In this document: piece by piece, positions 1-46,717 of the stretch
Layout: every line of letters starts with the position of its first letter
How positions within the stretch are numbered: the first letter of the stretch is position 1
NCBI GenBank assembly: GCA_018398765.1
Contig: JAHBMJ010000465.1
Coordinates: forward strand, 1-46,888
Origin: Chromera velia
Lineage: Eukaryota
Length of the DNA: 46,888 nt
Direction of reading: 5' to 3'
The notes under the pieces: model-generated
Seen by the model: only the letters and a program-made list of their open reading frames with translations
The model's database searches: none
Told to the model about the DNA's origin: nothing
Position numbers and translations under genes: made by a program

Positions 1-19
1 GGAGGAGGAGGAGGAGGAG

Positions 20-50
<31 letters not shown>
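1..50. repeat. (GGA)n trinucleotide tract, poly-Ser on the - strand
   Basis: Directly visible. Confidence 0.95.
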
Positions 51-51
<1 letters not shown>

Positions 52-189
52 ACTAGCAGAAGAGGAGGACGAGGGGTCTGAGCCACCCCCCTCCCCTTCA
101 TTGCTTCGGGCTTTGTTTCCGGGTCCGGGGCCCCGGAGCGGCGGAGCGCTTGGCGGTGGAGGGGGGGTGTCTAGTAGATTGTTATGGGG

Positions 190-339
190 GTTCTGACATG
201 TTCTTGCGCCGGTGGGGTAGGCTCGGGTGTCTGCTGGAGCTTGGAGGGGGCAGATGTGACCATCTGTGCTGCACGGCCTCCCTTGCCGAACACATTGGCA
301 CGAGGTGCACCTTCCCCCCAACCTATGGCATGCACAGCA
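190..339 (-). other. CXC/CRC-like cysteine cluster within the decayed ORF
   Basis: Manual translation CCACHRLGGRCTSCQCVRQGRPCSTDGHICP...TCQNP resembles the tesmin/TSO1 CXC pattern CxC..C..CxC..C..C..CxN. The ORF track misses it because the frame has no stop before the window edge. Confidence 0.55.
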
Positions 340-639
340 TTCGCTTGCCCTCGCCTCTTGCGAGTTCCGGGGTGGGGGGGTGGGTGTTTTGGTGCTGTGC
401 CTGGCTGTTGTGTCTTCATCTTCGCTGTCCGAATGCTCTGAGTCCACCAGATCAGGGGGTTCGTCATCCTCTTCCTCTTGCTCCCTTTCTTCGCCGCCCC
501 GCCTCTCCTTCCATGTCCTTTTAAGGTGCCTCTCGCGGACTCTCTTGTCCGCTACCCATTTACACCTCTCGAGGAGGTCCGTTGGGGCTTCATCCGGCAC
601 TCCCAGGTACCCCTTTAGGGGGGTGGGGGTCTTGGCTGG

Positions 640-1395
640 TGTATCGCTGAGGCTTTCGGAGGTTTGCGTATGTGTGTGTGTGTATGGGGTTATGTATATG
701 GGGTGAGTGTCTGCAGGGGTGCTGGTGGTTGGAATGGGGCTGCCTCTGGGGGGTTGCTGAGGCTTTCTGGGGTCTGTGGGTGTATGTGCGTATGTGTGTG
801 TGTATGCGGGGTGGGTGTCTGCCGGGGTTCTGGTGGTTCGAAGGGGGCTGCCTCTGGGGTGTCGCTGAGGCTTTCTGAGGTCTGTGGGTAGGTGTGCTTG
901 TATGTGTGTGTATGCGGGGTGGGTGGCTTCGGGGGTTCTGGTAGTTGGAGGGGGGCTGCCTCTGGGGTGTCGCTGAGGCTTTCTGGGGTCTGTGGATATG
1001 TATGTGTGTGTGTATGTATATGCGGGGTAGGTGGCTTCGGGGGTTCTGGTGGTTGGAAGGGGGCTGCCTCTGGGGTGTTGCTGAGGCTTTCTGGGGTTTG
1101 TGGGTGTGTTTGCGTGTGTGTGTATGTATGTGGGGTGGGTGGCTTCGGGGGTTCTGGTGGTTGGAGGGGGGCTGCCTCTGGGGTGTCGCTGAGGCTTTCT
1201 GAGGTCTGTGGGTGTATGTGCATATGTGTGCGTGTATGCGGGGTGGGTGGCTTCGGGTGTTCTGGTAGTTGGAAGGGGGCTGCCTCAGATGTGTCACTGA
1301 GGCTTTCTGGGGTCTATAGGTGTGTGTGCTTGTGTATGTGTGTGGGTAGGATGGGTTTCTTTGGGGGTGCGGCGGCCGGTTGGAAGGGGGCTGCA
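640..1395 (-). repeat. 108-bp (36-aa) tandem repeat, ~7 copies, QTPESLSDTPEAAPxQPPEPPKPPTPHT...
   Basis: Unit starts at 721, 829, 937, 1045, 1153 and 1261, an exact 108-bp spacing, with partial flanking copies. Confidence 0.95.
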
Positions 1396-1916
1396 TCAGG
1401 GTTCAGTGAGGAGCACGTCGGGGACTGGGTGGAGGGCATGTTGCGGGAGGGGGGGGGGTTTACTGTCTGTGCGAGTGCGGGATGGGGTGAGGTCCTCATA
1501 GGGGTGGGGTTAGGGAGGAGTCCTGGGTCCAGACTGAGTGTTCGCAGGGCGGGCAGCTGTAGGGGGGAAGCATTGTGGATGGTGGTGCTCGGTGGTGAGA
1601 GGCGGCGGTGGGGGTGTGTATGAGGGGGGAAGGCGAAGGGGCAGCATCTGGTAGTCCTGCGGTCTTCCGGTTCGTTAAAGTCTCTGTCGTCCCATAGGTC
1701 TCTTTCCTCGGGGGGGGGGGAAGGGGGTCGGAGGGGGAGAGGGTCTGAGTTTTATCTGGGGACGCTCGCTTTGTCAAATCTCCATCTCCTGGATGGTGGT
1801 GGGGTTAGGGGGGTCCTGGTGAGTTGTGAGGAGGGCGTGACGGTGCCTATGTGAAAACGTTCTGGTGTGTGGTTGGGGGATGTGGGGGGCCGCGGTTGGG
1901 GTTAGGTGTGGGTGTG

Positions 1917-2032
1917 TCTTTGGATGGGTATGAGGGAACCTTCCCCCATCTGCCCGGGGGAGGGTCTGGCCTTGTCTTTGGATGGGTATGAGGGAACCTT
2001 CCCCCGTCTGCCCGGGGGAGGGTCTGGCCTTG
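1917..2032. repeat. 58-bp tandem duplication (frameshifting)
   Basis: 1917-1974 versus 1975-2032 with one mismatch (cccccatct/cccccgtct). Confidence 0.95.
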
Positions 2033-2204
2033 GGTTGGCCCCCCTCCCCCGCCGTACAACAATCCCCTAGAGGCACACGCACCCCCCCCTCCTGCTTGCG
2101 GGGAGAGGAAGGGCCGGCCGCCGTGTCACAGGCGTTTGGGCCCCCCTCCCCCCCAGCCATGTCACAGGCGTTTAGTTGTTCGCTTGGCCGTCGGACTCCC
2201 CTCC

Positions 2205-2560
2205 TGCTGTCTTCCTGTTGCTGGCTGTTTCTTTCTGTGTCTTGCTGTCGCTAGCTGTGTCTGTCTACATCTGTCTGAATCTGCGTCCCTCTGTGTCTGT
2301 CTATGTCTGTCTGCGTCTGTCTTTGTCTATCTGTGGCTGCCTGCGTCTGTCTGTGTCTGCCTGTAGCTGTCTGTATCCGCCTCCGGCTTTCTGTATCTCT
2401 ATGTCTGTGGCCGTCTGCATCTGTCTTGTCCTGCCGTCTTTTGCCTGTCTCCGTCTGCACCTGCACTGCGGCTGCTCTGGTCTGCCTTTTTGCTTTGACG
2501 ACTGTCTACATTTGGCTTTCTGTCTGTCTGTCTGTGCCTGCTTGTGTATCTGTCTGTTCT
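2205..2560. repeat. Degenerate (CTGT)n-like tract, read in frame as Q/T/D/R-rich sequence on the - strand
   Basis: Visible tctgtctg periodicity; lies in the frame of the decayed ORF. Confidence 0.7.
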
Positions 2561-4719
2561 TGGACCTGAGCTAAGGGTGCCTGAGAAGAGAAGGGAGGGG
2601 AATAGGAGGAGGAAAGGGAGGAGGAAGAGGAAGAGGACGAGGAAGAGGAAGATGAAGAGGAAGCGGGGGAAGGAGAGGAAGGTGAGTCAGAACAAGCAGG
2701 AGGGACAGGGCCTGGCATCTCCGACAGCGAGTTCTCGATCCCCTTCTGGAGGGCCTCATCATCCGTCAACCCCGCATTGGGTGTGAGGTTGGCTCCAGCT
2801 GGGCTGACATTTAGTCGGCAGACTATTGGGGTGATGGATGGCCTTGCCTGCCTGTCTGCTCGCTAGTCATCGAAGGGAGTTGTGCGGATGGCTGCCTCTA
2901 CCATTTTTTTGACTATCTGTGGCGTCTGGGGCTGTGCGGGCTGCCTCGGGTGCGGGTTCTCTCCCCTCCTCCATCTAGCTCTCCGCTCCTCCCTCTCTTG
3001 GATTTCCTTTTCTGCCTCCTCTTCCCATTCTCTGCGGGTTGCTGTCTTAACTCGCGCTCGGCGTTTCCTAGCCTGTCTGATTGGGTCAGCCATCCCTCGT
3101 CACAGCCCAGAGGGTCCAAAAGGTCCTTGAATCGGAAGGGGGAGGATTGGTGGTGTCTTGGGCGGGGGGGTTGGAAGGGTGTGGACGTCTGCCGTAATGA
3201 AGCTAGAGCTGGGTGGCAGCTGCCTTCGTTGCTCCGCCCTCCACTCCCTCGCTTCCTTCCTCACCCTTCCAACCGCTTTGGCGTGTCCCTTCCTCTCCTC
3301 CTCCCACCATTGCGCCCTTTTGATTCGGCCCTGCTCCACCCGGGGTGGGTCTGTCCGGCATGCGTTTGTGGCCAGTGCTGCAGCGTCTATCCACCTCCTC
3401 TCCTTCTCTTTGTCCCTCTCCACTGGGCCCCACGCACATACTGTGGCTGGCTGGCTGGGTGGAGAGAGCCTAGCTGTTGTTGCTTCCCACGCCCTCCCTG
3501 CCATGGGAAGGGCGGGGTAGTTTTCGTCCGTCTCGTCGGGGGGCCCATCTGGCTGAGAGGTGGACCTGCAGAGGGATGCACATGGTGGTGGAGAGTTAGC
3601 TACCCCGCTCGGGGGGGCTTCCTTGGCTGTGGACAGGCCCACTTCGCTGACGCCATCTGCCTTACTCTTTGACTGGCCTTTTGATGTTTTTTGACGTCCT
3701 GGGCGATGGCAGTCAGTGGTTGAAGACGGAGGAGTAGGAGATGTTGAAGACGGAGGAGGAGACGGTCCAGCTCTCTTATCAAAGAGGTCATGTCGAGATG
3801 GGGAAGGAGAAGATTGCTTGTGTTCAGGAGACTGCGACATGGGTGCTGCTCCTTTGCCGAGCTTCGATGGGTTTGTTCAATGGAGATAAAAGCAGCAATG
3901 AGGAATTCTATGCTTAATCTGAGTGATGCGTATACGTTCGGCCCTGCGTGGCCGCGTATCGGTTGCTCACGTCGCTGGGTTTGGCGGGTCCTTTCGCTCC
4001 CCCCACCGGTGTCCACGCTTCCGCGCCCCCGCGCTCCTTCCGGGAGCAAAGAGAGTGGCAAGCGGACACAGGAACCGGCCCAGCAGAGTGATGCTTAGAA
4101 GAGAAACAGACGGAGACGGCAGAGATAATTGGATGACCAGATCTCCTTTATTTCTCAACCATTTTTCTTTAGAAAAGTACGAGCGGGTATCTTCTTATAT
4201 CAGAAGGTAGTGTCCTTTGTGAAAAGACTGATCGAGTAGAAAAGGTTCAAGGAGGTCTTTATAGGTAAAAAGCACCATAATAGACGTCTAGCGTTCGGCA
4301 AGTCACAACATGTAAGGCAGATTGTTAAATAATGGACCCTCATTTCGCAATATTTGGCAAATAGCTTAACAACTTCATTTTTTTTCAAACTCTTCCACTT
4401 CTGGAAAAAATAACTTTAAAATTATTATTAAATAAGCTAGTAAAGAAGTTATATTATAAGTTTACATGATGACATTGACATTGTTGTACTGTGTATCGTC
4501 ATTACTATCGTGATATAACAAATCAATCCATTTTTGTAGGGAAAACTTCATTTTCTAGTTTATTTTCTAGCTGTTAGTACAGTCTGAGAGTCAAATTTGA
4601 AAACTGATCCCCTCCATGCCCGGGATGTTCTTCAACAGAGCAACAAGTAAAGGCATAATACTAACTACTATAAATGGTGTGAGTCTCCACAAGCTAGGTA
4701 CCTACTTTCCTTCTTACAG

Positions 4720-5670
4720 ACTAAGTTACAGTTCCTCTTCTTGGTTCTCCTCCTCTTTTCCATACTCGTCATCCTCATTGACAGACTGCAGGAAAGTAGA
4801 CAGCAAGACAGTCAAAGTTATCACATAGTTTGTTTATTCAGTCATGGAGCCTTGAAGAAAATAAGTAAGAGAAAGGGCAGCAGAAGACCCCAAAAAGGAA
4901 CATTTAAAGTTATCTGTTCTGATTTGCAAGCCACAGTCTCAAGCCAGAAACATCTGATTCAAGGACTTAATTTTTTTATTGGAAAGGATTGGCCCAGCAC
5001 TGCATGGCAGACTGTTTCAGACAAACCTCGAGGAAGAGAGATGCGTTACCGACTTCCATCTCGTTCTGGATTTCTTTTTGCATGACTTTTTCTGTCCTTT
5101 GGATGTAGGGTGCCCATCCTCTGTGCTCAGGAGGCGGCGCACCGAAGTGCTTCCCCGGCCAGTCCGTCAGCTGGTCCCCCTCCTGGCAGCCTGCGCCTCC
5201 ACGATTCGGACGAGTCCCTCCCTCACGCCCCCTTCCACCCCTCAAACCTTTCCCTCCCCTTTCTTTTCCTCTGCAGCTCGTCTCCTTCCCTGTCACCCTC
5301 TGTCTCCCAGAGGAAACAGTTACCGATATAGCAGACTACTGCAGTGAAAGAAGACCCTGCTGCGGCTGTTTAAACCTTCTCAGATTTTCTAGGGCGGCGG
5401 CCCTGCCTCCCCAGACCGAGGCCGAGCGCTTCAACAGAGAGCAAATGCCCGCTTAACGTTTTCTCATCTCTTTCCATACACTTTTTTCCTTTCTCTTCCT
5501 GGACTTCCTCATCAAGACCTTCACCTATCCTGTCATCCTCGGTAACGGGCTTGAATCTGTACCCCATTATCACGTTTGTGCACCTTCCCTCTCCCAGTTT
5601 GAATTGAAGAGCACCCGATACGGTCTTCCCTTCCCTACTGCTCCAAAGCACACGTTTCCATCATAGTTGC
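4720..5670 (-). pseudogene. GC-richer island between AT-rich spacers; possible decayed coding relic of unknown family
   Basis: Short charged ORF pieces (5370..5651, 4976..5296) with no recognisable domain and no convincing splice chain. Confidence 0.25.
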
Positions 5671-6212
5671 GTAGATTTAGTTTTTAATAGACTATGTGAT
5701 GTAAAGTTATTTACATACTATAGAATTGTTAATTATAGCAGTAGTAGGTCTGCAATATCAATGTATAGAATATTATTCATTCTGGTACTGCTAGTTAGTA
5801 GTATATCTATTGTTACGATGATTCATTTTAGGATTCATTAATGAAAGGTTTAAGTTATTGGCTGGATTATAGGGTGGCAGATTATATACGTACCCGGTTG
5901 GGCTCCTAAATATTTGCAGCGTCTTTGTAATCAAGCTCGTCAATAACGTTCGTACAATTTTAATCTAGAATTTTATTATATTAAATACGAATCAATCAAT
6001 CAATTTACAAAATTTTGAGGCATTCCTCAATTTTTTTTTATGAACTTTAATTTCACTGCTATAAAAATCAATCAATCACTATTGATAGATTCATCATAAT
6101 CATGAATGATTGATCTATCATCTATATTAATTAATTGATATTGAAATGCATGAAAAGATCAATTACTAAACAAATATACTATTTAAGTAGCTATTTAAAG
6201 TAAACATCAAGT

Positions 6213-6431
6213 AGTGAATGAATGAATGAATCAGTGAATGAACAAACAAACGAACGAAAGAAAGTAAGAAACAGAGAAAGAAAAAAAAGGGGGAAAAGCT
6301 TGCAGCTCGACTATAGGGCGGAAGGAAGGAAAGATAGATAGATAGAAAGAAAGAAAAAAAGCTAGAAAAAAAGCCACAGAGACAGAGACAGAGACAGAGT
6401 TGACAGACAGACAGACAGACAGAGAGTCTCT

Positions 6432-6479
<48 letters not shown>

Positions 6480-6536: not shown

Positions 6537-6608
<72 letters not shown>

Positions 6609-6655: not shown

Positions 6656-6695
<40 letters not shown>

Positions 6696-9935: not shown

Positions 9936-11273
9936 TTGCGTTGTATGTGTGTGGTTATGGTCCGTCCTCTGTTGAAAGTGGGAGTCTTTCATCATGGCTT
10001 CTTTTTTTTCTCCACGTTCTGGCAACCTCATCCGCCTCTGTCTTTCTCGTCCTATCACTGGTCCGAAAAAGTTACCTCCAGAGTGGCTCCCTCACCCCCC
10101 CCATCAACGTTTTCTGGTCCGACTGAGGAACTACCCCAGCGGATCCGTAACTACGTTTCCCTCTCCACGGTTCTGTTACAACGGGCTCTGTTGCTCCCTT
10201 GTCCTCTGACTGCAGTTGTCGGTGCTTTTCTGGGATGCACGCTGAGCCGGTTAGGGGTTCCATTTCCTTTTGATGCCATCGTCGCGGGGGGCACGGCGGG
10301 ACTTTATGTGTCGGTTGCCTTTGTATTCTTTGATGCTTGCATGTGCCTGTTGGGTGATTTGTTTTTCTCTCCGATTCTTGGGCTTTCGCATTCGAGGGAC
10401 TTTCTTCTTCTGCAGACATCGCCGTCCTGTTTTCTCTTGCTGTGCGTCTCGCCCCATGCCACATTGTTTGGCGCTATTGTATGCACTCACTTGGGTCGGT
10501 GCTGGGCTGAGCACGCAAGTCTGTCGGTGTTTTTGCTCATGTCGATGTGTTTTGGGACCATATAGGTCTGTAAATGAGTGAGCGAGGGTGTCTATATACA
10601 CGAAATCATATGCCATTTTTTGTGAGAGTGCTCCGTCGTGTTCACGCGTACTGATGGATGGATAAGTATCTCTGATCTCACTGTGCGTGCCTTTGTTGTT
10701 GCGTTATCCATCGTTTTGCACACGCACGCTTTCTCAGTGAACGTTCTTATTGGTTTATCTGCGATCATGTTCCATGCACACTCCTCTTCTCACCTTTTTG
10801 TTCGCATGTGACTACGTAATTTTGCTTGCAGTTCTCGGGTCATTTTGAAGCAACAGTTGCCTTTTGTCGGTTACTTCGCACTCGGAAGTGCAGCCTTCAG
10901 GTGGGACGCGAAACAGCGGCATGTCTGCTTTCAGGAATTTAACCAAATTTCATCAACTCACAGATTTGTCCGTCATTTTTTCTCTTCCTCTCTCCTCGGA
11001 TGTTTTTCTTTCTGAGAAGTGTGTCTCCCTGCTGCGTCCCTTGGATGTCTCCTGTATCTTCCCTTGGTATTTGGTGATGCCTTCCTGCCTGGCTGCATCC
11101 TCGACATTATATTACGCCATCGCCATCGGCCCATCTGCCTGGCTGCATGCAGTGTCTTCAGCCATGCGAACAGCTACCTGGAGAGGGAAAAAGCAAAACC
11201 TGGCGGCACTAGTAGAAAGACCCCAACAGTAGCAGCTGCACCCTCGAAGGCTCTTAGTAAAGAACAAATGTGA
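9936..11273 (+). pseudogene. Decayed intronless multi-pass membrane protein gene
   Basis: Several hydrophobic segments (AVVGAFLGCTLSRLGVPFPFDAIVAGGTAGLYVSVAFVFF; AFVVALSIVLHTHAFSVNVLIGLSAIMF; IFPWYLVMPSCLAASSTLYYAIAIG) broken by stops (e.g. TAG 10563) and frame changes. Confidence 0.4.
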
Positions 11274-11279
11274 AGTGAC

Positions 11280-32198: not shown

Positions 32199-32230
<32 letters not shown>

Positions 32231-33107: not shown

Positions 33108-33141
<34 letters not shown>

Positions 33142-35735
33142 TACATACAAGCACAAATACACATGAACATGAGTGAACTGTCTGCTTTCGCATTCATTCA
33201 TTCATTCATTCATTCATTCATTCATTCATTCATTCATTCATTCGTCTAGCCAGCCGTTCAGCCATCACTTTAGAATGCCCACCAACCCGTCCAACGTTGA
33301 AAGAGCCAAGTTGGTCACACAAACAGGCAAAGCCCACCAAAAAACCCAAAAGAACCACAACAACGAATCAATCAATACCACACTCAGACAGTCAGTCAGT
33401 CACTCAGACAGTCAGTCAGTCACTGAAGCCGGCAGGCAGCCGGAAAACTAAACAGCCAGGCAATGCGTCAAACTCCTTCCAGTGAATCTGCTACCAACAA
33501 AAAAAAGAAACACCCACCCAGTCTCAAAAGTCTCTGCACGTGAGTCACCGCGTCGATCAAAACAGGGCCCCACTCCCCCGCTGCCCCCCCCCCTCCCCCC
33601 TGGCGCCTCTGACTCTGACTCTGCCTCTGCGTCTGAGACTTCCGCTGCCCCCCCTCTCCATGAGCACACGCAAGCAGCTGAGCATGTCCCGCCGCAAAGA
33701 GGTCCTTCAAGAGCTGCTCTCTCTCACATCGGAACACAGAAAGGGCACTCGATAATTTGTCGCCGAGAATGTGAATGGGTATCACATAGAAGACGAATGG
33801 GTGGGCAAGAAGCGACAACAGCCGTGAGTCCATTTTGATCTCCACACCCATCTCTCCGGCTCTTTTGCGTACTCGAGAAACTCGTACGCGATAGAAGTTG
33901 CGGCACAATGGCGTCTGAGAATGTTCATGCCTGTCTACTTGCGTAGTATCATCCTACTCGCTCTTGAAGGATGAATCTGAATACAAAGAGAAGAGGTTTT
34001 CTGTCCTTTTCCATTTTGCCTCGTTTTCGTTAGTCCTTCTCAAGTCTTGACTCTTCCTTTCCGAGAGAAATCCGCAGATCATGTGTGAATCTTGCTCCAG
34101 CGAAGATGCATGTTGACTAACTCACCCACCATGTTTTCCGTTTTCAGTTGAAGCGAACTCTCGTCCATCGCCACGGAGTGACGCTCCAGGGCTCGCACCT
34201 GCATTTATTTATTTGCATTTCCATGTGCAGGGAGGGTGGGGAGAGGGATGTTAAAAGAAAATCCGATAGATACAACGGGCAGACACCCGATCTTTGGGCC
34301 CGAAAGAAACGCGAAAGAAAAACGCAAAGCATTCGACCAGAATTCAGACGTTCGAGTGTCGAGTGCGCGAAAAGAGAATCACGGCCCGTGCACCAACAGT
34401 AGCCATGGCGCATGCTGAAAGTCAAGAAGTCATGTATAGACCCTTCTTCGTCGAGCATCGGAAGTAATAAAACAACCCCGTCTTCGTTCTTCGTCGGGGA
34501 CACCCCCGTTCCCCCCCTTCAAACTGACCACATCCTTCAGGACTTCCAGCTCGTCCTTCATTAACAGAATCTGAACGATTATGTGAACACACATAGAGAT
34601 GCACACACATGCCACTCATATGCATGTTCACACAGATTGAGATATGTGCCTTCAAAACCGTCAGACTGAGTGGGACTACACAACAAGGCTAGAATTCAAA
34701 AGACATTCTTCGCAACGAATTGTCCCCTCTTTTCATCCTGCTTCTCGTCCGTCGTACCGGATTCCATTCCTTTCCAATCTTCCGCTCTCCTCTTCCCGTT
34801 TCTTTTGGAGCCTCGCATTGGAAAGCCTGAACACGGAATCTGCAATCAGGTGCTTCCAACCGCTTCCAACCGCTTTTCGCGTTGGTTCTTGAAAAACTGA
34901 AATACGGATGAGAAGGTACGAATACGCTTTGAGACGACAGCCCCCCCCTCTTCTCCCCTTACCTCATCGTCTAGAGCCTGTCGGAGCGCCCCCACAACTT
35001 CTGTGGAGGCATCGACTTCCGAGAAGTTCCTCTTTTGACCGAATTGCAGAAGGAAAGCGGAGCGCTGCCTCTGGACCTCGGCACCCAATTCGAGAGACCC
35101 ATGCACAACAGCGCCTCCACCCAGGACCTCGTCATTCGTGTCCCCTCCACTCGCATTCCATCTCTGCATGCACACACACATACAGATGCAGACTCTCTCT
35201 CTCTCTCACACACACGTACACACACACACATACACACGCGCGCGCGCGAACGCATGCATGCACGCACGTGTACACGCATGCATGCATGCAAACAGAGAGA
35301 GAGAGAGACGGGTTACATCCCATCACAACAGTTTGCTTGCCCTACACATTTCTATTCAGGCAAAGACCATCGGTGCAGCACTACAGAGTGGCAGAAGTAC
35401 GGACGCGTCATGAGTATGTAGTGCAATGTTCTCACAACCCATGGGTCCAAACACCGTGCTCGGATACGTAAATGCATGCGCTCTTGAATACACATATATG
35501 CGAGAGTTGACGTTTCGACTGCATGTGGAAAGGAAATTGCGCGAGGGATGCATCCTTCAGCACTGACCGAGGGTCTCTGGGTGAAGTCGGACCTCACACA
35601 CCCCTCCTTCCCGAATCCGGAGACAGCCCCCGAAGGGGAAGAAGGGAGCTGGTGCTGCACGGAACTCCTGCCTCCATGGGTCTTATGCGAGAGCTCCCCC
35701 AACCAGTGCTCGAGTCGCTGGTGCCTCCCCAACAT
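12442..35735 (-). CDS. Giant poly-TRAF-type zinc-finger protein with EF-hand-like, IPT/TIG and PH-like domains (~52 exons, ~2760 aa)
   Basis: Manually chained GT-AG exons with matching phases and no in-frame stop, 5'->3': 35735-35568, 35163-34963, 34570-34529, 34198-34130, 33713-33518, 33053-33019, 32525-32430, 31875-31345, 30973-30071; then 38 zinc-finger exons from 29873 to 14624; then 14416-14321, 13973-13762, 13485-13247, 12975-12903, 12646-12442. The start codon (35735 or further upstream), a few 5' splice sites and the end of the last exon are uncertain. Confidence 0.85.
12490..13350 (-). other. PH-like domain (three exons) at the C-terminus of the zinc-finger gene
   Basis: Spliced translation KKGGFVIRLQ...PHKRRWFIMD...RLLRYYG...KPEGSYSYNEL follows the PH beta1-beta4 pattern (K.G.L, KRRWF.L, L.YY, P.G.I). 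The C-terminal helix Trp is not evident. Confidence 0.6.
13762..14416 (-). other. IPT/TIG domain (two exons) of the zinc-finger gene
   Basis: Spliced translation LEIQPLEGPAEGGTEVQISS...MDVFFGETRV...WKVKLPPS...VPVKLQVGG...AELKY matches the TIG signature (I.P..Gp..GGt.v.I, V.fG, v..Pp, V.v, F.Y). Confidence 0.8.
16196..16292. repeat. Intronic compound microsatellite (TTCA)n(GTCA)n(ATCA)n
   Basis: Directly visible. Confidence 0.95.
29512..29581 (-). repeat. (GTGA)n microsatellite abutting a splice donor
   Basis: + strand (ctca)n immediately left of the exon boundary at 29582. Confidence 0.9.
30900..31480 (-). other. Degenerate EF-hand pair split by an intron
   Basis: RRAIMEAFKALEEKGGEAGKVKEEVFASIVKAFADEMKVPDAQMD|SLLVSVPKAMNGFVLYAPFVEAF has calmodulin-lobe spacing, but the Ca-binding acidic loop residues are missing. 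Confidence 0.5.
33191..33242. repeat. Intronic (CATT)n microsatellite
   Basis: Directly visible. Confidence 0.95.
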
Positions 35736-36045
35736 GAGGTCCACGCAGCCTCTATCGACGACAACGGGGATTCACAGGTGGACCAGCATCCGGTGGAGGC
35801 AGTATAGTGCGTAGACACTGAACAAAAGTCAAAATCAACCCGGCCCCACCTACAAATATGCCCTTGCACTCACCGGCACTCTCAAAGTCGAAGGAACCCC
35901 TGAGCATGAACAAAGCGGTGGCCCTTCGAATGTATAGCACAGAGGCAAGTTGCCATGAAGCAGGAAGCAGGCATACATGCAAATGTAGGATCCACGCGCA
36001 TATCGACCGATCGATCTGTCTCTTAATTTCCATTTCCCGTGCACA

Positions 36046-36061: not shown

Positions 36062-36524
36062 AACTGCGCGATCGATACGTACACGAGAGTGGGCGCGCAT
36101 CGCGCGCAGACGTTGTCGTGACCCTGACTTCTTGTGCGCAAAATTATACAGCATAGCATGAAAAAAAATATATACAGCTTATAATTGCAGTTGTACATAA
36201 AATTATATAGCATGAAAAAAATTATACAGCAGTGGAGTCTGGCGTTGAAGCGGCCCGAACGATGTTTAAATGCCGCCATCATATATGTACACAATGTCAT
36301 TGTTAGCTTAAGAAATTATATACATCTAGAAGTTCAGTGTGAAAGATTGTCTATTGCATTAGCTAGGAATGTGAATCATCATAAGGTAAAAAAGAGAGCA
36401 GAGACCAGAAGAAAAACATACACACACAAAAAAAAAGTTAGAACAAAGAAGAACAACTGTAATTTATGATAAAATTAGACGGGTTTATAGTCTAACAAAA
36501 TTATAATATTATAGGGCGGAACAT

Positions 36525-36572
<48 letters not shown>
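36525..36572. repeat. (ATCA)n microsatellite in the AT-rich spacer
   Basis: Directly visible. Confidence 0.95.
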
Positions 36573-36574
<2 letters not shown>

Positions 36575-37570
36575 ATATAGTATAGTGAAACATGCGTGCA
36601 TATGTTCTATCATAACCCCCAAACAACCACATATATGCACACATGTTTAGATTAATATATATAGATGAAATTTAATTAAATACGATATAAGATTTAGAAT
36701 GAAAATACATAGGTTTCTACACAGGTAATTGCCATGCAGCCCCCATACTACCCCACACTCAGGCTACGTGGTCTAAAGTTTTTACTTTCAATTAAAAAAT
36801 GCCAGTAATGAATTTACTACTACTAACGATGATAAATAATGATAATGATCATCAAATAATGAAGAAAGAATTGTTTTTTTATGTGAAGATTTTAAAAATC
36901 AAAGTGATCAACAAATGGTTTAATATTCATAACGCGGGCCAGTGGGGCCCCAAAATCATGCATCGATCAAGATCCTATGATCATCATAACAAAGTGTATG
37001 CCATTGCTCCAAAAATCCCATCATTGAAGCGTTCATTCATTTACTAAGTCAAATTTTGATCATCTCATTTTTCATTGAAACATTTATGAAATCGCACATT
37101 CATTTATGCATTTATTCATTCATTCATTCATTCATTCATTCGTTCGTTCATTCATTCATTCTCTTATTCATTAATTTATGCGTGCACTTATGCATGTGTG
37201 TATATACATCACTACTTCATACTTGTGTCCTGACTCGACTCCTTCACACAAATATCGCGGAAGCATCAGTGAGGGCGGAGATAAAGACAGGGGTTGACAG
37301 AGGACCAGCCAGGGAGGGAGAGAATCAATCAGGCCAATACATGGGCAAGCAAGGGAGTGAGCAGGAACAGCAGGCTCGGATCAAGAGGAGTCATTGACTA
37401 GATTCAGTGTGCATGGCTTTTGTGCATGTCTCTCTTGAGGGACTCTCTTTATCGACAGGCCGGAGGCGTCATTCCGTCCTTCTAGTGAGTAAGCCCGAAA
37501 TCGGCCATAAACCAGGCGGCCTTTCTCTGGCCATCATGAGACAGCGACTTGCTCACAATCAGTGGGTCAG

Positions 37571-40500
37571 TCAGTCCGAGTCTGATCCAGGATCTGGGTA
37601 TCCTAGAAGCAGATTGTCAAGCTGCTGGTCTGCATCTCGCCCGTTGTCTGTGGGGGGACGTGGGTTTTGTTCGTTCTCTGCTTCTGCTGTCTGACTGTCA
37701 GATGAGTCCGAGTCGTTATCTTCTTGCAGCACCAAGTTTGTCTCCCCCCTCTTCACCCTCTCCGTCTCTTCCTTCAAGCCCAGGGGACGGAAAGAACATG
37801 CCGCATCATACCAAAAGATGCCCAGACGACTACGCATGCCAAGGGAGACACCATCGGAAAGCTTTGGGGGCTCCTTGTCCTTCTCCCCTTCTTCATTTTT
37901 CTGCTGCTTTCCCTGATCTCTCTCCTGCTGAATAGGTGCCGTCTCTTCTTCCTTGGCGGTTTCGAAAACCGTTCTTTCTTCTTCCGCCTCTTTTGTATCC
38001 TCTTCATCTTCTTTTTCTTCGTCTTCTTCCTCATCCCTCTCTTCTTCCTCTCCCTCCATCTTGCTCCGCTTCTGCTTCTAGGTTCTGATCTGTCTTTCCC
38101 CCTCCCCCCTTTTCTGCCTCCTGACTCCCTCCCCCCCTCCCTTCCAACCCCTCCCAAGACTCTGAACATCTAGAGCCAGAGTCAGATCCTTCAAACGAAG
38201 AGGCAGACGAAGACGAAGAAGACGCCCCCTCCAAAGACTTGTCGGCCTCTTCTGCCGATTGCCTGCATATGTTCAGTCGTTGGATACACTCCATGCATTC
38301 AGGGCAAATGGCAAAAGGCAAGCAGGAGTCATGCGTTCTGCTCGGTAGAAAACACCACTTTGCTCTCCATAGCATTTAGAAAGAAAAACTTGAAAAGAAA
38401 AGAAGAAGCCAGTCGTAGCCTGTCCAATCCAGAGCAGTTCACTCACGCTCGCACGTTTCTCAATAAACAAGCGACTTTTCCTGGTTTAAAAACCAAGAAG
38501 CCTCTCCAAGTCTTCTGTTCTTGTTTTCTCTCTTTTTTGGCTCACCGGCGAGGAGCGGGCTGTACTTCATCTGCGTCGCTGACGTTGACTGCAAGCACAC
38601 AGGGAGGCAGGCAGGCAGACAGAAAAAAGATAATGGCTAGGGACCTCAGACCCTACTTAGTCTAAGAGCCCAGTGCATACCGGAACATTCAACTTCAAAC
38701 GACACATGTTGCACGAGTCTCAAAATCAAAACCAATATGTCATATGCAGTTGTCTGTCCATCACACATACCCCAAAATAAAAGGATAAGAAACGAAAAGA
38801 CAGCAACAGGCAGCCTTCGCAGAAAGCAAGGAAGATGGACAGAAATAGATTGAGCATAAAGCTGACCTGAGTAAACTTCGTCTCTGTCTTCTCTCACAAA
38901 CGGAGCAGGGAGAGCCCGTTCAAGCCAATCTTCCTCCTCCGACTCCATTCCCTCATCCCTTCCTCTTTCTCCCTCCCCCTTTTCTTCCTCCCCTTCACTT
39001 GCCCCAAACAAATCAAGGTCCACCTCCCCCTCCTCAGGAGCGCTCTCCTTCATTGAGGGGCTAGGGGCCAGAGGAAGCCAACACTCCAGGGCCAGGCCGT
39101 GGACGGAAGCGACCTAGAAGCGGTGTTTGATCGTTGGAACAACTGATAGCTGCACGGTTTAGGCATCCGCCTATTGGCTTTCTTTTATTCGCATAGACTC
39201 GGAGGCAGACAGGCACATAAGCAGGGGGGACAAAAAATCTTTTACTTTTTGTCATTTCTTTCAGTTTTGTTCAGAAAACATACTGGGGATGGACGGGGAC
39301 TGACAGTAAACCCATAGGGAGATTAATGGATCCAAAAGTATATCAGCTTCAGAGAAAAAGTGAAGAGTGAAACATGTTGACAAAGGCATACCCACATGCA
39401 TACGATAACACACATACACCCGCGCGTGCGCGTAGATACAAACACACACACACACACATACAAAGAGAGTCAGAGAGAGAGAGAGAGCGAAAGAAGAGAG
39501 ACCTTGAAGTCAGGGTTGCCTCCCAGGTGCATCACCCCAAAATGCTTGGAGAGAGGCAGTTCCACAAACGCATAGTCACAAAGACCTTGTTCGCCGCCTT
39601 TCTCGTCCATCCTTCTCCCTCTGCCTCTCGTCGATGGGCCCCTCTGACGACGGCTCTTGGGAAGGTGTGCGTCCTCAACAAATCTGCAGGTAGGCAGGCA
39701 GGCAAGAACATACATCGACCTTTTTGGTGGGCGCATGAATAATTTCGTCAAAGATGAAGCTGAAGGCAGTAAGTTGAATTGTTGAAAAATCTGGAGTCAA
39801 CAAAGACAAGCACGGCAACCCACCCACAGTACCCTTACACCCATCCTTACATTGTTGTTGGAAGAAGTCTGGTGGACCCCCACACCAACACACTAACCGG
39901 TACTTCGGCCGTACCCCCCTTTCCTTTGCTTTATCTCTCACCACCGTGAGAGCCGTATGGACCGCAGAACACCACACATTGACCTCGACATCCGACAGCT
40001 GAGAGACGAGGGAAACCGAGCTGCTGCTTCCTCCATCTCGTTTTTTCTTTTCGTCTTCTTCCTGTGCGCCCTCGCCGTCGAAATCCGGACCTAAAAGTGG
40101 CACGCCTGGTTTGTTGTAATGCAGATGGAGGGCCAGGATGGGGGGGTCTGTGGTAGCCTGAGCGACCCGATCCCGGATATACCGCACCCAACGAGCGACC
40201 ACCGCCATCGCTGCCTAGTCTAGAATCTTCTTCTTCGCTCTCATGAAGCAGAGATAGTGCTGCATTGAAACAGTAAGGGAAGGCAAGGGGAGAAGTCGAA
40301 AGGTCGATTCGGTACGAGATTCCTCTTTCATTTTCGTCATCCGTTTTGTAGTTCCGATGATGTAATTGGCTCGGCCAATATGCGGATAGTGTCTGACTAG
40401 CTGGCTGACTGACCCATAGAATAACGGTTGAGTGCATCTGTAGGAATGTGCGGAGGGCTCTGAGGACGTCGTCGAGGTTGGCAGTCGAGTCGAGGAGGAC

Positions 40501-43500
40501 GGCGTTCTGACCGAAAGAGAAGAAAGCGTCTCCCACCTGCACGCAGCCACACACACACACACACACACACATACACACATACACACACATATGCAGGGAG
40601 GTAGAATTCGGCAGCTGATGGAGTGACAAAGTGAAGAACGAAAGGAGTAAAGAGACGAAACAAAAAGCACTCAACCGACGAACCGAAAGAAAGGGGCAAA
40701 GGAGAAAAACGAATGAAATACGAAAGGGCAAGTGCAGATCTTTCCTTCCAATCTCATGTGACTGGGGTGTGCATATCCAATCAAACAGAGAGATCCATCA
40801 CCTTCCATTGGACTCCATTCAACTCCACTCACTTTCTTCAGCTGCGAAGGCCGCAGAGGGAACCCGCTCTTTCGTAACCTCTCCGGAACGACGCAACCGA
40901 AGAGACGCCCTGCGTTCCTCCCAGTCTCGAAGGAACTGCTCTCTTCAAGCGATGCCAAACCGAAAGCTGTTGAGGCGTTTCCGTCCTCATCATACATGGT
41001 TGAGCCCTCGATGTCCCTAGTTGTCTGCTTCTTGAAAGAAGCCAATCGCACCAAAGACTTGAAAAATGATGGTGAAGATGCTGGCGCGCCCCCTTTTTCT
41101 CATCTCTCTTCTCCCCCTTCCCCATCTAGAATTGAAGAGGCAGATGAACCCTTTCGCGGCGCTTCCAGATCTCTTCCTCCTTTTCCCTTCCCTCCCCAAA
41201 CCCCCTTCTTCCCCTTCTTGAGATCATTCCCTCCTCTTTCCGGGTCCATATCGATTCGGAATTCACCCGACCGATTGCCTCTCTCTCCCCTGCCAGACGT
41301 GGAGGAAGCTTCAGCCATGTACCCCGCCAATCGAGTTTTTGAATGCGTACTGGGGGACACCGCTTTTCCTTTCCCATTCCCTTTCTTGCTCTTCCCGCCC
41401 GCGTCCTTCCCTCCACGTTTACTTTTTCCTTGGGAGGGACGAGTGGGGCTGGGTGAGCGGTCGGCCCACATCGCTTCGTCTAGAAGAAGTCTTTGACCCT
41501 CGCGAACGAGCGGATCCCAACGTTCTCCTGCAATGTCAAACGCCGGCCTTCTTCATGGAGTCAATTCAGCTGTCCTATCAGATGGTGCGTCTTCCTCTTT
41601 GTCTTGCATCGTGCTGTTTCTTCTCTCCCTGATGAGACTGAGTCGTCTCTCTCGTGCACTTGCAGGCACACCTCTCTTTTTATCCGCCTGTGCCTACATG
41701 GGTCTTGCCACCTCTAGATCTTTGAGGAAGGGATGGTCGTCCTTTGCGTTGACGGGAGGCTTTAAAAGCCTCTGAGTGATCCACAAGAGCTCATCGAGAT
41801 CGTTCACACCCTCTGCAGACGCCGCAAGTTCCTCATCCTCCGCAAGTCTGCATAGAGAGGCTTAATCAGGAGGAACAGGGATAATGAGTGGGAAGCCAAA
41901 TATTGTCACCTTACAGTCATTCAATGGCACACAAGCAGGAGTTCTCTCTGATGAGGGAGCTGCTTAGAGTTCACACAAAAAGCTAAGAACAAAGAGAAGA
42001 ATGGACCATGTAGACAGACAGACCTCTGAGAGCAGATAACGGCCCATTGAAAGAGAAATTCGTCAAAACACTTGGGGGGTTGGAACTTCTTTAGTATCTC
42101 CGTCGAGTCCTCTCTCCACTTTTCTAAAGGACTCCGGTGGACTGTGCTTCTTGATGAGACGTTCAGGAGGGTGCGCCTGCTGGGTGACTTCACTACGGTA
42201 CTACTGAACGTCGGCATCTCTGCAACCCGGGCAAGCTGATTATGGAACGACGGCGGCGGGACGCTGGTCAAAGACGCCACCGTCTTCTGCCTGTCACTCA
42301 CAATTTCTGTGTCCCACTTCACAAGAATGTGAGAGACCACACTATCAATTTCGACCAACGTGTCCAACAAAGCCTCCTTTGACACCTTCTGCATCTCCTC
42401 AAATACCTTGCTGCAGCGAGCAAGAATGAACGAGGACAAACAGAGGGACGCCTCAGTAAGGGCACCCCCTGAGTCCCCATTCCCCTGTGCCTCCCCACTG
42501 TCAACCAGCCTCAGCGTGTCCTTGCTGACCGAGCTATCGATCATTTTCTATATCGGCCGAAGAACACACTTGAGCACAGGAAGGACCCACATGAATGGGA
42601 CCCGAACGATTGTGTCAGGCAGCACAGTTGCAGGGTCAGAGGCCTCGTCTACCTCCCGCACCAGCTGAGAGATGTCCGCTATGTAACCCGTCACGATGAC
42701 TCCGACGATTCTGATCAGATACGCCCCGTTGAGAGCGAGGATCACCGCGACTATGCCCAGGTTCTGGAGGGGCGTCATCGAACCCAAAGCAAGCATCTGC
42801 GATCAGAGGAGAGGAGAAGTTCGGGAATTAAGGGAGACGAAAATTCAGAAGAAATCTGAACGATCGATCAAATCTGGTGCAAAAATCAGAACGGATGGCT
42901 GCAGCATACAGCAACACTCAAATTGTTCTGTTGGATTGACTAAAGTGCCAAAATCACTTTGACGCGAGTACGGCAACAGCTTCTTTACCCATTTACCCAT
43001 GCACCGACCTGGAACAAGACGAGAGAGAAGAGCCAAGTCCCCAGACCCTGCGATTCCAGGCTGTTGAGAATGTCATTGTCCTGACTGTTGAAAGGGCTCT
43101 TCCTGCTCTGAACGATGAAAGACGCGATGGCGATCCATGTAGCCTGGGAGAGTCTCATGTTGCTATTCTCATCTGCATGCAGTGTGAGAAGGGGAAAAGA
43201 CAGATATTGTATCTAAAAAGCAAAATTAAATTACAAACTTTGCACTTCAATGTGTATACGAGATACTGGATCGCCTATTTCTTTACACAGGAACTTTCTG
43301 TCTCGTCTGGTGATCTTTGCACCCTTTTCCGTCTGACTGACCCAGGTAGAAAGCAAGGCACAGCTGCAGGAGGATTTTCCGAATGATGATTGTGAGCTCC
43401 CAAAATTCAAAGCCTGGGCGGAATCCCTGAATCAGGAATCCAAAACGCCGCCTAAAATTTGCACGGAGAGGTCTGTTGCTCTCCACCCTCAACCGTCTGA

Positions 43501-44265
43501 GCTCTGTCATCAAAGCAACGCCCATCAGCATCGGGATTACCACCCCAAGAAGGACCATGATGCCTGCCGCAATGCCGGACCACCTGATGTAGACCTCTGA
43601 CGTGCAGGTCACGGAGGGCGCGCTTTTAAGTCGGGTCTCCTCAAGGCCTTCCGCGAGAGGCTCGCACCTGCACAAGTCGTAGTCAGATTGGAAAAAAACA
43701 AAAAAGGCATTTGATTCTGTCTGGTTAGTCCAGATGCACTTAGCGGCGATTGAGGGAAATCACAGCAAAGTAACGTTAGGCGGGAGTACAAAGAAGTGAG
43801 TCTGGAAGCCGATGCTCTCTCCATGCAGCGACAGGAAAGCTGCAAACAAGTTCAGCGAGAGGTTCCATTAGAGGGCGGGTTCTGAGAAACAAATGCACAG
43901 GAGGGTCATGACCACAGAGCAGCCAAGAAGAAGGGACTGGTCAAGCAAATAGATTGGCAGAGAGACCAACAACTGACCGTAAAACCTCAAAGAGCTCCTC
44001 CAGAGAGCCCTCAAAGGTCAGGAAAAGGAGAACGATGTATCTGTAGACAGGCAGCCCATGGAAATAGCAGTTGGGAGTGTTCAGACTTCCTGGCTACCAT
44101 TCACTTTTCACGATACACACAGACTCCCTCACCTTAGAGTCATAGGCGGCTGTCAGCTCTGATCAACCTGAGACTTCCAGCTACTATCACTGAGTGTCTC
44201 TCCTCACACCCATGCCATGTGCCTGACTAAGATACGACCACAAACACAGATGCCGCGCCCTCAAA

Positions 44266-44305
<40 letters not shown>

Positions 44306-46307
44306 AATACGTGCGCGCACGCAGAACAAAAGATGGAAAGGGGAAAATATAGAGGACTAAACGCGGCGACTGATATAGAGACCATGTCCTCAAAAAGGCA
44401 TTTGAGGAGTCTGCGGAACTCTCGGGACCCTTTTAGCTGAGCCACGCGGGGAAGAAGCAGAAAGTCGTACCTGCATGCATACAGAGTGGTCAAGCGATAG
44501 ATCGATCAATTCATCGAGGAGGTCAAAACACAGCTAGAAGGGGAGAGACATACATGCAGTGAGTCACTGTGTGCTTTGATGTGAAACAGGAGTTCGCAAC
44601 GGATTAAGATGGAGTGAGGGTGAAAAAGAGACATCCCGATCGAAGTCCCACAAACAACTCTTCATTGGAGGACTGGATCGCAAGCAATACCCCATGCAGC
44701 TGAGCACTTTTAATTCTGACCGACCGACCTCCAGATCCCGAGGACCCGCTTATTCCACCTCCTCCAGATCTCTAGCCTGATCAGTTGTCTCTGCTGGGCT
44801 TCCGTCAGTCCACCTGCCCTCATTCTGTTCTCAAGTGCTAACTCCTGTTGTTTTCGCATCTCTGCCACTTCCCTCTCCCTCTGTCTCTCTTCCTTCGGTT
44901 GTCGAAGCTCCGGATCGTCCCAATGGAACTTCATAGTCCTCTTGGAAGGGGAACCCACGAGGGATGCACTCTGGCCGCCCTCTTCTCCCTCCTCCTCAAT
45001 CACCCCCGCAAACTCGATGGCGGGCTGACCGTACGAACATGCGCCCCACTGCTCAGTCTCTTCTTCATCAGTTGGACAGCCACTTGCTTCCCGAAGCTTT
45101 TGCTGCCATTTTCGCTGAGCAAAACGACTGTGTGGAAGTAGACGCACGCATAAAAAGCATAGCACAACAATCCATCCAGCTATCCATCCATCCATTTACG
45201 CATTCACGCACGCACGCACGCACACACACACACATACACACACACACACACATACACACACACACACACACAGTCATTCATTCAATCTCTCTCTCTCTCG
45301 CTCTCGCTCTTTCTGTTTCTTTCTTGCACACAGTCACAACCACAAAACCATAAAAACCCAGGGAATGAAGGAAGGAGAGAAAAGAATCGGAACACGTCCA
45401 TTCACCAGACAAAAATGGCAAGTTTCGTCTTATTCGTTTTCAATCAGTTCCTTTCACTCATTCGTTGTCTCACGGGGGCTGCCTGACCATTTCTCTAGAC
45501 AGATCTTTTCCATTCTTATCGCTTATTTCCCCAGTTCCTCTGACTGACTTGTATACATTCACTGCCACTGCACTAAAAACGATGGAGGCCCCAAGAAGAG
45601 TCAGGAAGAGCCCGGAGGCCACCATCTTCAGGGTGTTTCCGATCTTCAGGATGATGAAAGCTTCGTCTTGAGGGTATCTGGAGCAGAGATGAGAAAAAGG
45701 CAGAGAAAACAAGATCATTAGAGAAGCAGAAGACGGCACTCTTGGACGACTACAGACAGGATAGGCGAGGGCGAGGCCTCCAAAAAGAGTCGACGAAACT
45801 TCCGCAAAGCAGCTCTAAACTGCGGAAATGGATGATCAAACTGGAATCTCTGCACGCGCAAAAAGAAATGGGGCCCCGAATCTACTTCGCCAAGAAACAG
45901 GTGAATGAGTATAAATGAATATATGAGTTGGTTGCGGTGGGTCATTCTCGAGATCGGCAAAGTTCTCCTGAATGAAAAAGGAATCGGCCTTCTTGGCTGG
46001 CTGGCTGACCCTGCTGTGAGAAGTAAGGGTTCAAGGATGCACTCTGTAGAGAGGACGCCGTTGATCGAGGGGACCCCTGGGATCATTTCATTGAAGACTT
46101 AGTCCGGTAGGCCCTCTGGCATGTCTGCTCCCGACACTTCCATCAGTCCGATGAACCCCAGCAGAGAAAGAAAATTCAGCAGGACACCTGCATGCACACT
46201 TATTCACTCATTTGCTTGCACACACGGACAGACAGACAGACACACACACACACACACATACACATACACACGCACATACACACGCATACATACGCACATA
46301 CAGACGC

Positions 46308-46346
<39 letters not shown>

Positions 46347-46349
46347 CAT

Positions 46350-46436
<87 letters not shown>

Positions 46437-46717
46437 TGTACGCATACACGCAAAGGCAGACAGAGGCGCAGATAGACAGAGAGAATCTCAAAGTGAAGTC
46501 ACCAGGGTCTTCCTGAAAAGCTGAACGGGAAAAAAGGAACTTTAATCGATCGAGCCACGACGGAAGTCTCGGAATATACATCTGAGGAGTCCATGACATC
46601 TTCAACTAATGTATGTCAGGGCCTGCATGAACACGACTGACGGATTGCGACCACGTGCGTCTTCTCGTCCTCCTCCGACGGCATGGAGTTCAGAGCCGTG
46701 TAGAAGATCACCATCGC
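37571..46717 (-). pseudogene. Multi-pass membrane protein gene (TRP-C/PKD2-like protist family), 5' end beyond the window, with 7 in-frame stops
   Basis: Sixteen phase-compatible exons: 46717-46642, 46187-46010, 45677-45549, 45127-44729, 44470-44375, 44040-43978, 43667-43342, 43172-43009, 42796-42024, 41847-40833, 40536-40414, 40259-39898, 39683-39503, 39149-38867, 38588-38546, 38262-37571. Family motifs: RVLLNFL, LSTECIL, FEVLRC, SVTC, RFGFLIQGFRPGFEFWELTIIIRKILL, SPF...ILNSLE. Stops at 46099 (TAA), 42548, 41694, 40215, 39114 (TAG), 41553, 41100 (TGA). One frameshift at ~38060-38140. Confidence 0.8.
46225..46450. repeat. Long intronic (CA)n / (CATA) microsatellite
   Basis: Directly visible. 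Confidence 0.95.

What the first reader, a model, noticed from the sequence alone, without database searches (positions are those of the whole stretch)
1..46717. Window-wide RIP-like C->T (mainly CpA->TpA) hypermutation signature in a non-fungal eukaryote
Seen: two unrelated long genes (1-3840 and 37571-46717) each carry 7 nonsense codons while keeping their frame or exon phase. Of the 14 stops, 11 are TAG/TAA, and all are reachable from CAG/CAA/CGA/TGG by C:G->T:A transitions. Repeat copies differ mostly by TG->TA or CG->CA/TG, and the spacers are TpA-rich. The ~2760-codon zinc-finger gene between them is untouched. Established: fungal repeat-induced point mutation (RID/DIM-2 dependent) gives CpA->TpA changes in duplicated DNA and leaves AT-rich relics. 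Inference: a locus-selective, deamination-based genome-defence process may operate in this protist; I do not know of one being described.
Basis: partly seen in the sequence, partly recalled or inferred. Interest (0 to 1): 0.85.

Follow-up and report, generated by a model that had tools for sequence, protein, structure and literature searches.

The report
Cytosine decay in algal repeat DNA
In this stretch of alga DNA (closest matches are Chromera velia), a repeated element differs from its sister copies mostly by C-to-T changes, likely from cytosine damage in silenced DNA, but the bias is too broad and too local to be the fungal RIP defence that was proposed.

Summary
Partly confirmed. The window is Chromera velia-like. 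'Gene 1' (1-3840) is part of a multicopy element. Its copies differ almost only by transitions (294 transitions, 50 transversions; Ts/Tv 5.9). Where this copy differs from most others, 26 of 27 shown sites are C:G->T:A, including 5 of its 7 stops. So directional C->T erosion is real. It is not RIP. The context is broad (CpA 11, CpC 7, CpG 5, CpT 3 of 26; CpA about 2.4-fold, 95% interval 1.0-5.6). RIP composite index is negative in 46 of 46 1-kb windows. The AT-rich spacers are not CpA-depleted. '11 of 14 stops are TAG/TAA' is what context-free C->T predicts (70-78%). Both genes also need frameshifts. CpG is not the hotspot either, so plain CpG-methylation decay fits poorly. Best reading: homology-independent, mildly CpA-leaning cytosine deamination in silent DNA. 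A genome-wide mutation bias cannot be excluded. No enzyme or methylome could be tested, and I found no paper describing this in Chromera.

The parts
1..3840 (-). Intronless low-complexity ORF of a multicopy element, cut by the window edge; 7 stops (3102 TGA, 2865 TAG, 2508 TAG, 2253 TAG, 1904 TAA, 1754 TAA, 1316 TAG) and 2 frameshifts; Cys-rich CXC-like motif near 300-350; family not identified
   Evidence: no family
1400..4270 (.). Part of the element on which other genomic copies were laid; C:G->T:A-dominated differences
   Evidence: 957 and 740 contigs laid in two DNA runs; summed depth mostly 300-1300 against about 33 in the single-copy flank (run X1)
646..1400 (-). 108-bp tandem array in the ORF; 22 of 35 differences from the majority letter among 5 core units are C:G->T:A, 14 of those 22 at CpA
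   Evidence: p=0.005 against 23 of 67 C sites; units are CA-microsatellite-like, so slippage and shared ancestry can inflate this
1914..2030 (.). 58-bp tandem duplication that shifts the reading frame
4275..4404 (.). Piece of a much higher-copy short repeat next to the element's 5' end
   Evidence: summed depth 14,443 (X1) and 5,222 (X2) in this bin; loose ends at 4275 and 4404
4400..6200 (.). Single-copy, partly AT-rich spacer; TpA-rich, no convincing CpA depletion
11250..12000 (.). AT-rich spacer (GC 0.30); holds the only 4 of 464 windows passing loose RIP thresholds, driven by high ApC and not by low CpA (o/e 1.20)
12050..36000 (-). Multi-exon Cys/His zinc-finger repeat gene, used as the intact control; ends approximate
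   Evidence: intron-like DNA 47% GC
36100..37250 (.). AT-rich spacer (GC 0.33), CpA o/e 1.36
37571..46717 (-). Single-copy pseudogene of a Chromera multi-pass membrane protein family; 6 nonsense codons, 1 frameshift, one splice donor near 44376 that reads AT in place of GT (inferred from paralog residues I-S-V-Y); continues beyond the window

Best explanation
Copies of the repeated element at 1-4270 differ mostly by C:G->T:A changes in all sequence contexts with a mild lean to CpA, likely because cytosines in silent DNA of this alga are methylated or poorly repaired and deaminate over time, and the single-copy pseudogene next door likely decayed the same way. Shown: the spectrum, its direction, the broad context, the reality of most gene 3 stops, and that gene 3 has no close copy. 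Inferred: that the process is concentrated in silent DNA (the element's implied equilibrium GC is 16-31%, while introns here are 47% and the genome 49%); that it is clock-like and does not need homology pairing; that gene 3's stops came from C->T; that the chemistry is 5-methylcytosine or cytosine deamination. Expected long-term result: repeats and dead genes fill with nonsense codons and drift towards AT-rich DNA.
For: run X1: C>T 90, G>A 117, A>G 42, T>C 45, transversions 50 of 344 places; run X2: 277 transitions and 49 transversions of 326. Diverged paralogs of gene 3 give Ts/Tv 1.1 (57:51; Fisher p=2e-11). Of the 40 rows shown (393 in all), 27 are sites where most laid copies disagree with the window, and 26 of them are window C:G->T:A (p=4e-7). 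Five stops read CGA, CAG, CAG, CAA, CAA in the other copies (rows 3102, 2865, 2253, 1904, 1754). The 13 minority rows (changes in other copies) are 9 C->T, 1 T->C and 3 transversions. Derived C->T makes up at least 68% and probably 75-81% of all places. Per-site rates CpA 2.7%, CpG 1.8%, CpC 1.1%, CpT 0.7%. Same nonsense load in the single-copy gene. Context-free C->T erosion of zinc-finger-locus DNA fits the spacer dinucleotides best of 7 models (rms 0.16).
Against: No methylation data or methyltransferase/deaminase gene for Chromera was found or testable. CpG, the usual 5mC target, is not a hotspot (5-fold CpG excess rejected, p=0.002). Context rests on 26 to 35 sites from two or three copies; only 40 of 393 rows were shown. 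No neutral single-copy spectrum exists for comparison. For gene 3 the origin of the stops is not shown: paralog residues at 42550 are E/E and at 40217 K/R, not Q or W, and its amino-acid polarity (13 C->T-type: 3 T->C-type) does not differ from the intact paralogs pooled (16:9, p=0.31). The window's own letter is absent from the laid contigs at most element sites (present at 2865 in X1, 1904 in X2), as expected when contigs drop rare variants.
Confidence: 0.45

Rival explanations
1. Ordinary genome-wide mutation bias. Chromera mutates mostly C:G->T:A everywhere (spontaneous deamination, UV or oxidative damage, or a recently weakened repair pathway). It shows only in unselected DNA, and selection keeps the zinc-finger gene intact.
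For: Single-copy gene 3 and the repeat have the same nonsense load (p=0.78). Broad context; pooled 35 sites do not differ from background (chi-square p=0.14). A slight 5' pyrimidine excess (20 of 26, p=0.049) and one CC->TT doublet at 2873-2874 fit UV damage. A 2-3% layer of recent change would be invisible in intron composition.
Against: Ts/Tv 5.9 with 68-81% derived C->T implies equilibrium GC of 16-31%, but intron-like DNA here is 47% GC and the genome 49%. That needs strong GC-biased conversion or a recent shift. In the tandem array the CpA changes mostly follow a purine, which UV does not predict.
Confidence: 0.35
2. A true RIP-like defence: a homology-sensing, methyltransferase- or deaminase-driven process that mutates duplicated DNA at CpA (or CpA and CpG) during a sexual stage and leaks into neighbours.
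For: Strong directional C->T in a repeat. CpA is the top context in the 26 sites (p=0.024) and in the tandem array (14 of 22, p=0.005). RID-related DNMT4 exists outside fungi, in diatoms (PMC9998398, passages).
Against: Gene 3 has no close copy: other contigs match only in pieces of at most about 180 bp at roughly 80-90% in the rows listed, yet it is as broken. CpA share 42%, and 70% is rejected. RIP composite negative in 46 of 46 windows. Spacers are not CpA-depleted, and CpA-specific models fit worse (rms 0.21 for 2-fold, 0.85 for 20-fold). Contigs of depth 207 (428 bp, X2) and 371 (203 bp, X1) suggest about a dozen unmutated identical copies. PMC9998398 found DNMT4 in no MMETSP species other than diatoms and does not mention Chromera in its main text.
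Confidence: 0.12
3. Classic CpG-methylation decay of transposons, with the other contexts being background.
For: CpG o/e is 0.51-0.54 in the element against 0.72 in the zinc-finger locus. CGA->TGA at 3102.
Against: Only 5 of 26 changes are at CpG (16% expected with no bias); 5-fold and 10-fold CpG excess are rejected (p=0.002, 2e-6). The spacers keep CpG o/e 0.79.
Confidence: 0.06
4. The stops are not lesions: assembly error, stop-codon reassignment or RNA editing.
For: No direct evidence; the window's own letters in the element are seldom seen in contigs.
Against: Gene 3 matches two DNA runs with 0 differences over the listed pieces. The element's other copies have sense codons at five stops. 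The zinc-finger repeats use 74 CAA/CAG codons and no in-exon stop in 1,696 matched codons. Frameshifts accompany the stops.
Confidence: 0.02

Closest known systems
Repeat-induced point mutation (RIP) of ascomycetes; RIP-like TpCpG hypermutation in Pucciniomycotina (PMC3318451, passages read)
   Same: Directional C:G->T:A excess among copies of a repeat, nonsense codons from CAA/CAG, CpA as top context.
   Different: Weak context bias, no CpA depletion or positive RIP index, an equally broken single-copy gene, many near-identical copies surviving, no RID homolog shown.
Passive deamination of 5-methylcytosine in silenced transposons (PMC3318451 passages for fungi; plant TE methylation in CG, CHG and CHH recalled)
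   Same: Clock-like C->T transitions concentrated in repeats, high Ts/Tv, no need for pairing.
   Different: CpG is not the hotspot here (1.8% against 2.7% at CpA); no methylome or DNMT known to me for Chromera.
Localised hypermutation of integrated viral DNA in Bigelowiella natans (bioRxiv 10.64898/2026.01.13.699255; abstract, introduction, first results and passages read)
   Same: A proposed deamination-based, locus-selective defence in a non-fungal SAR alga, so the idea has a precedent.
   Different: Opposite direction (T/A->C/G, only at TpA), over 1000-fold rate difference measured in mutation-accumulation lines, viral targets. Here only copy-to-copy differences are seen.
Diatom DNMT4 (RID-related) and DNMT5 transposon methylation (PMC9998398, passages)
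   Same: Shows that RID-related and TE-methylating enzymes occur in SAR algae.
   Different: DNMT4 function is unknown and it was reported only from diatoms; nothing on chromerids in the main text or the supplements that were searched.

Membership tests
RIP | C:G->T:A transitions dominate differences between repeat copies | tested here: met
   Ts/Tv 5.9; 26 of 27 polarised sites
RIP | Strong dinucleotide or trinucleotide target preference (CpA in Neurospora-type RIP, recalled) | tested here: not met
   CpA 11 of 26, 2.4-fold (1.0-5.6); 70% rejected p=0.003; pooled 35 sites p=0.14
RIP | Restricted to duplicated DNA | tested here: not met
   Gene 3 has no close copy and the same nonsense load; that its stops are C->T is inferred, and leakage from neighbours is not excluded
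RIP | CpA-depleted, TpA-rich relics with positive composite index | tested here: not met
   46 of 46 1-kb windows negative; 0 of 464 pass strict cut-offs; spacer CpA o/e 1.24
RIP | RID/DNMT4-type methyltransferase encoded and required | not testable with these tools
   No genome held; no paper with Chromera and DNMT4
RIP | Acts in bursts in a premeiotic sexual stage | not testable with these tools
   Needs crosses or mutation-accumulation lines
CpG-methylation decay of transposons | CpG mutates several-fold faster than other cytosines | tested here: not met
   5 of 26; 5-fold rejected p=0.002
5mC-linked decay, any context | 5-methylcytosine present on the element | not testable with these tools
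   No methylome found
APOBEC-like or UV signature | 5' pyrimidine preference, strand bias, CC->TT doublets | tested here: inconclusive
   20 of 26 after a pyrimidine (p=0.049), strand 18:8 (p=0.24), one doublet
Transposable element (for 1-4270) | Dispersed multicopy DNA | tested here: met
Transposable element (for 1-4270) | Reverse transcriptase, integrase or transposase; terminal repeats | tested here: inconclusive
   No family hit for the visible ORF; Atlas scores at most 0.85, leads only; the rest of the element lies outside the window

The most novel reading that the evidence does not exclude
Chromera velia, the free-living relative of apicomplexans, has an undescribed genome-defence mutator: a non-CpG, CpA-leaning cytosine methylation or deamination activity aimed at silenced repeats and spreading into neighbouring genes, a weak functional analogue of RIP in an alveolate.
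Probability: 0.2. Interest if true: 0.8.

Novelty: new member of a known kind. Interest (0 to 1): 0.4.

Why it matters
C->T erosion of repeats is common, so the basic signal is ordinary. Two things keep it worth a genome-wide look. The spectrum is steep (Ts/Tv about 6) in a genome that is 49% GC, and it is not centred on CpG. If it proves selective for silent DNA, it would be first evidence of cytosine modification or deamination as transposon control in a chromerid, with about 30 Mb of transposons (PMC4501334) to test it on. The test is cheap for anyone holding the assembly. If it is genome-wide, it is a note on Chromera's mutation spectrum.

Tried and rejected
No whole genome is held, so copy alignments came only from two contig lay-overs, each showing 40 rows. 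RNA: no RNA holder listed for 39500-44200. In some searches the listed RNA pieces on gene 3 were paralogs with the same differences as DNA paralog contigs, and the element ORF had little RNA cover; neither is used as evidence on expression. Element identity: no hit; one search gave 2 hits, both multihaem cytochromes matched on a proline/CxxCH stretch, rejected; Pfam found nothing in the frames scanned; Atlas hits 0.81-0.85 (MSL2-CXC, CSRNP_N, hypothetical) are leads only. No related DNA in metagenome or viral collections (one search reported 2 matching stretches but returned 0 loci). Earlier findings: nothing in 3 look-ups. Literature: 0 papers for Chromera + repeat-induced point mutation, Chromera + RIP + transposable, Chromera + DNMT4; some searches gave listings with nothing on Chromera methylation or hypermutation (listings only, except passages of 10.1101/2021.11.30.470311). 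Supplements 13-23 of PMC9998398 and 13-16 of PMC4501334 were not searched, and bioRxiv supplements are closed; they could list chromerid DNMTs. A first count of 27 window-specific C->T sites was corrected to 26 after row 3299 proved a minority letter in run X2. A spliced model of gene 3 was not built; its codon counts come from tblastn segments (1,521 codons) and are approximate. Rejected: stop-codon reassignment, CpA-only and CpG-only models for the spacers.
Full report
Organism and layout. One exon of the gene at 37571-46717 has two relatives among 522 candidates, both Chromera velia CCMP2878 proteins at 85-86% identity. Over other segments identity is about 33-86%. Two DNA contig sets of 196 and 201 Mb hold all sampled words of 39500-44200, in line with the 193.6 Mb, 49% GC genome with about 30 Mb of transposons (PMC4501334, passages and supplementary file 10). 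The species is inferred from these matches. No whole genome was available.

The stops. From ATG 3840 the minus-strand frame has 10 stops. A path with 7 stops exists (4 TAG, 2 TAA, 1 TGA) but needs a shift at a 58-bp tandem duplication near 1914-2030 and a shift back at a 110-bp unit of the 108-bp array. Gene 3 has six in-frame stops (46101, 42550, 41696, 41555, 41102, 40217). Its last exon needs one frameshift; if that lies between 38080 and 38045 there is no seventh stop. The tally is also uninformative: all three stop codons are one C:G->T:A step from CAA, CAG, CGA or TGG, and from codon counts context-free C->T predicts 78% (element) and 70% (gene 3) TAG/TAA, against 79% seen. The zinc-finger gene is a fair control: 62 of 63 matched repeats are stop-free and the exception lies past a splice donor.

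Gene 3 is real, broken and single-copy. Five contig pieces in run X1 and five in X2 cover 37500-44200, apart from short simple repeats, with no other letters and no gaps, at depth 25-29 in X1. The five stops inside that stretch are therefore not assembly errors, with the caveat that these runs may be the assembly's source. Other contigs match only in short pieces (up to about 180 bp among those listed), and their differences are symmetric: A>G 19, G>A 19, T>C 11, C>T 8, transversions 51 (Ts/Tv 1.1). The paralogs do not show Q or W at the stops that align well (E/E at 42550, K/R at 40217). At 431 codons aligned in both paralogs, changes private to the window copy are 13 C->T-type and 3 T->C-type of 45, against 12:4 of 32 and 4:5 of 33 for the two paralogs (p=0.31). 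So C->T origin of these stops is plausible but not shown. One donor site near 44376 reads AT where paralog residues imply a junction, which would need G->A changes at TpG (inference).

On 1400-6150, 957 (X1) and 740 (X2) contigs were laid, with summed depth mostly 300-1300 over 1400-4260 against about 33 in the flank 4420-6150 in X1 (depth is not a copy number, so 'tens of copies' is approximate). Differences: C>T 90, G>A 117, A>G 42, T>C 45, transversions 50 of 344 places in X1 (Ts/Tv 5.9); 277:49 of 326 in X2. The tool showed 40 of 393 rows. In 27 of them most laid copies disagree with the window; 26 are window T or A against C or G, one is the reverse (p=4e-7). They include five of the seven stops: 3102 (CGA in others), 2865 and 2253 (CAG), 1904 and 1754 (CAA). 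The stop at 1316 is CAG in the other array units; 2508 was not among the rows shown. The other 13 rows are minority letters of other copies: 9 C->T, 1 T->C, 3 transversions. Against two high-depth contigs the window copy differs at 10-14 of 542 bases, which scales to about 50-75 changes in the element. Derived C->T is then 68% (minimum) to about 81% of all places, and the implied equilibrium GC is 31% down to 16%. Intron-like DNA in the zinc-finger locus is 47% GC.

Context. The 26 sites are CpA 11, CpC 7, CpG 5, CpT 3, against site shares of 23, 35, 16 and 26%. CpA is enriched 2.4-fold (95% interval 1.0-5.6; one-sided p=0.024). A 70% CpA share is rejected (p=0.003), and so is a 5-fold CpG hotspot (p=0.002). 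Pooled with the other copies (35 sites) the context does not differ from background (p=0.14). In the tandem array 14 of 22 C->T changes are at CpA (p=0.005), but the units are CA-microsatellite-like and not independent. A 5' pyrimidine excess is borderline (20 of 26, p=0.049) and there is no clear strand bias (18:8, p=0.24).

Not window-wide. The composite RIP index is negative in all 46 1-kb windows. Of 464 500-bp windows, 15 are positive, 4 pass loose cut-offs (all at 11201-12000) and none passes strict ones (cut-offs recalled). Pooled AT-rich spacers (2,678 bases, GC 0.31) have TpA o/e 0.92 but CpA o/e 1.24, the same as the zinc-finger locus (1.23). Eroding zinc-finger-locus DNA to the same GC fits best with no context bias (rms 0.16), then a 2-fold 5' pyrimidine bias (0.19), a 2-fold CpA bias (0.21), the element's observed rates (0.26), and far worse for strong CpA (0.85) or CpG (2.4) bias. 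The spacers may also simply be ordinary intergenic DNA.

Mechanism. Shown: strongly directional, broad-context C->T differences in one repeat family, with many copies still near-identical, and a neighbouring single-copy gene with a similar nonsense load (7 of 122 and 6 of about 130 stop-capable sites; p=0.78). Inferred: a clock-like deamination process that does not need pairing. Whether it is focused on silent DNA (my best reading, 0.45, from the gap between implied equilibrium GC and intron GC) or is the genome's general bias (0.35) cannot be settled here. True RIP gets 0.12.

Comparison and novelty. It works like passive cytosine decay of silenced transposons and resembles RIP only in direction. 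It fails three tested RIP features; two are untestable. RID-related DNMT4 is reported from diatoms only (PMC9998398). Searches found nothing on RIP, methylation or hypermutation in Chromera; unseen supplements may bear on this. Verdict: new member of a known kind, interest 0.4; the bolder case, a non-CpG mutator defence in a chromerid, has probability about 0.2.

Noticed in passing
window 8500-9804 (+): A frame with 6 internal stops (4 TGA, 1 TAG, 1 TAA) plus a final TAG in 436 codons, against 11-23 stops in the other five frames; possibly a third broken gene. No Pfam match; homologs and copy number not checked.
   Followed up: partly
window 4275-4404 and about 11112-11134: A very high-copy short repeat, also present in RNA contigs, abuts the element's 5' end. 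The letters that precede it in other copies match about 20 bases at 11112-11134, suggesting the end of another mobile element there.
   Followed up: no
window 4600-5700 (-): Single-copy stretch with protein-like fragments in changing frames and many stops; perhaps an old decayed gene or element. No Pfam match.
   Followed up: partly
window 12050-36000 (-): Very long multi-exon gene with about 60 Cys/His zinc-finger-like repeats (about 26-residue period); family not identified.
   Followed up: partly
window 37571-46717 (-): Member of a Chromera family of large multi-pass membrane proteins with several paralogs, some seen in RNA contigs; P0003 has a weak DUF7630 match below cut-off.
   Followed up: partly
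window 300-350 (-): Cys-rich CXC-like motif in the element ORF; Atlas neighbours are hypothetical eukaryotic proteins and MSL2-CXC/CSRNP_N clusters at 0.83-0.85, leads only.
   Followed up: partly
window 2873-2874: Adjacent CC->TT change in this copy; adjacent C->T rows also at 3259-3260 in another copy. Would fit UV damage.
   Followed up: partly
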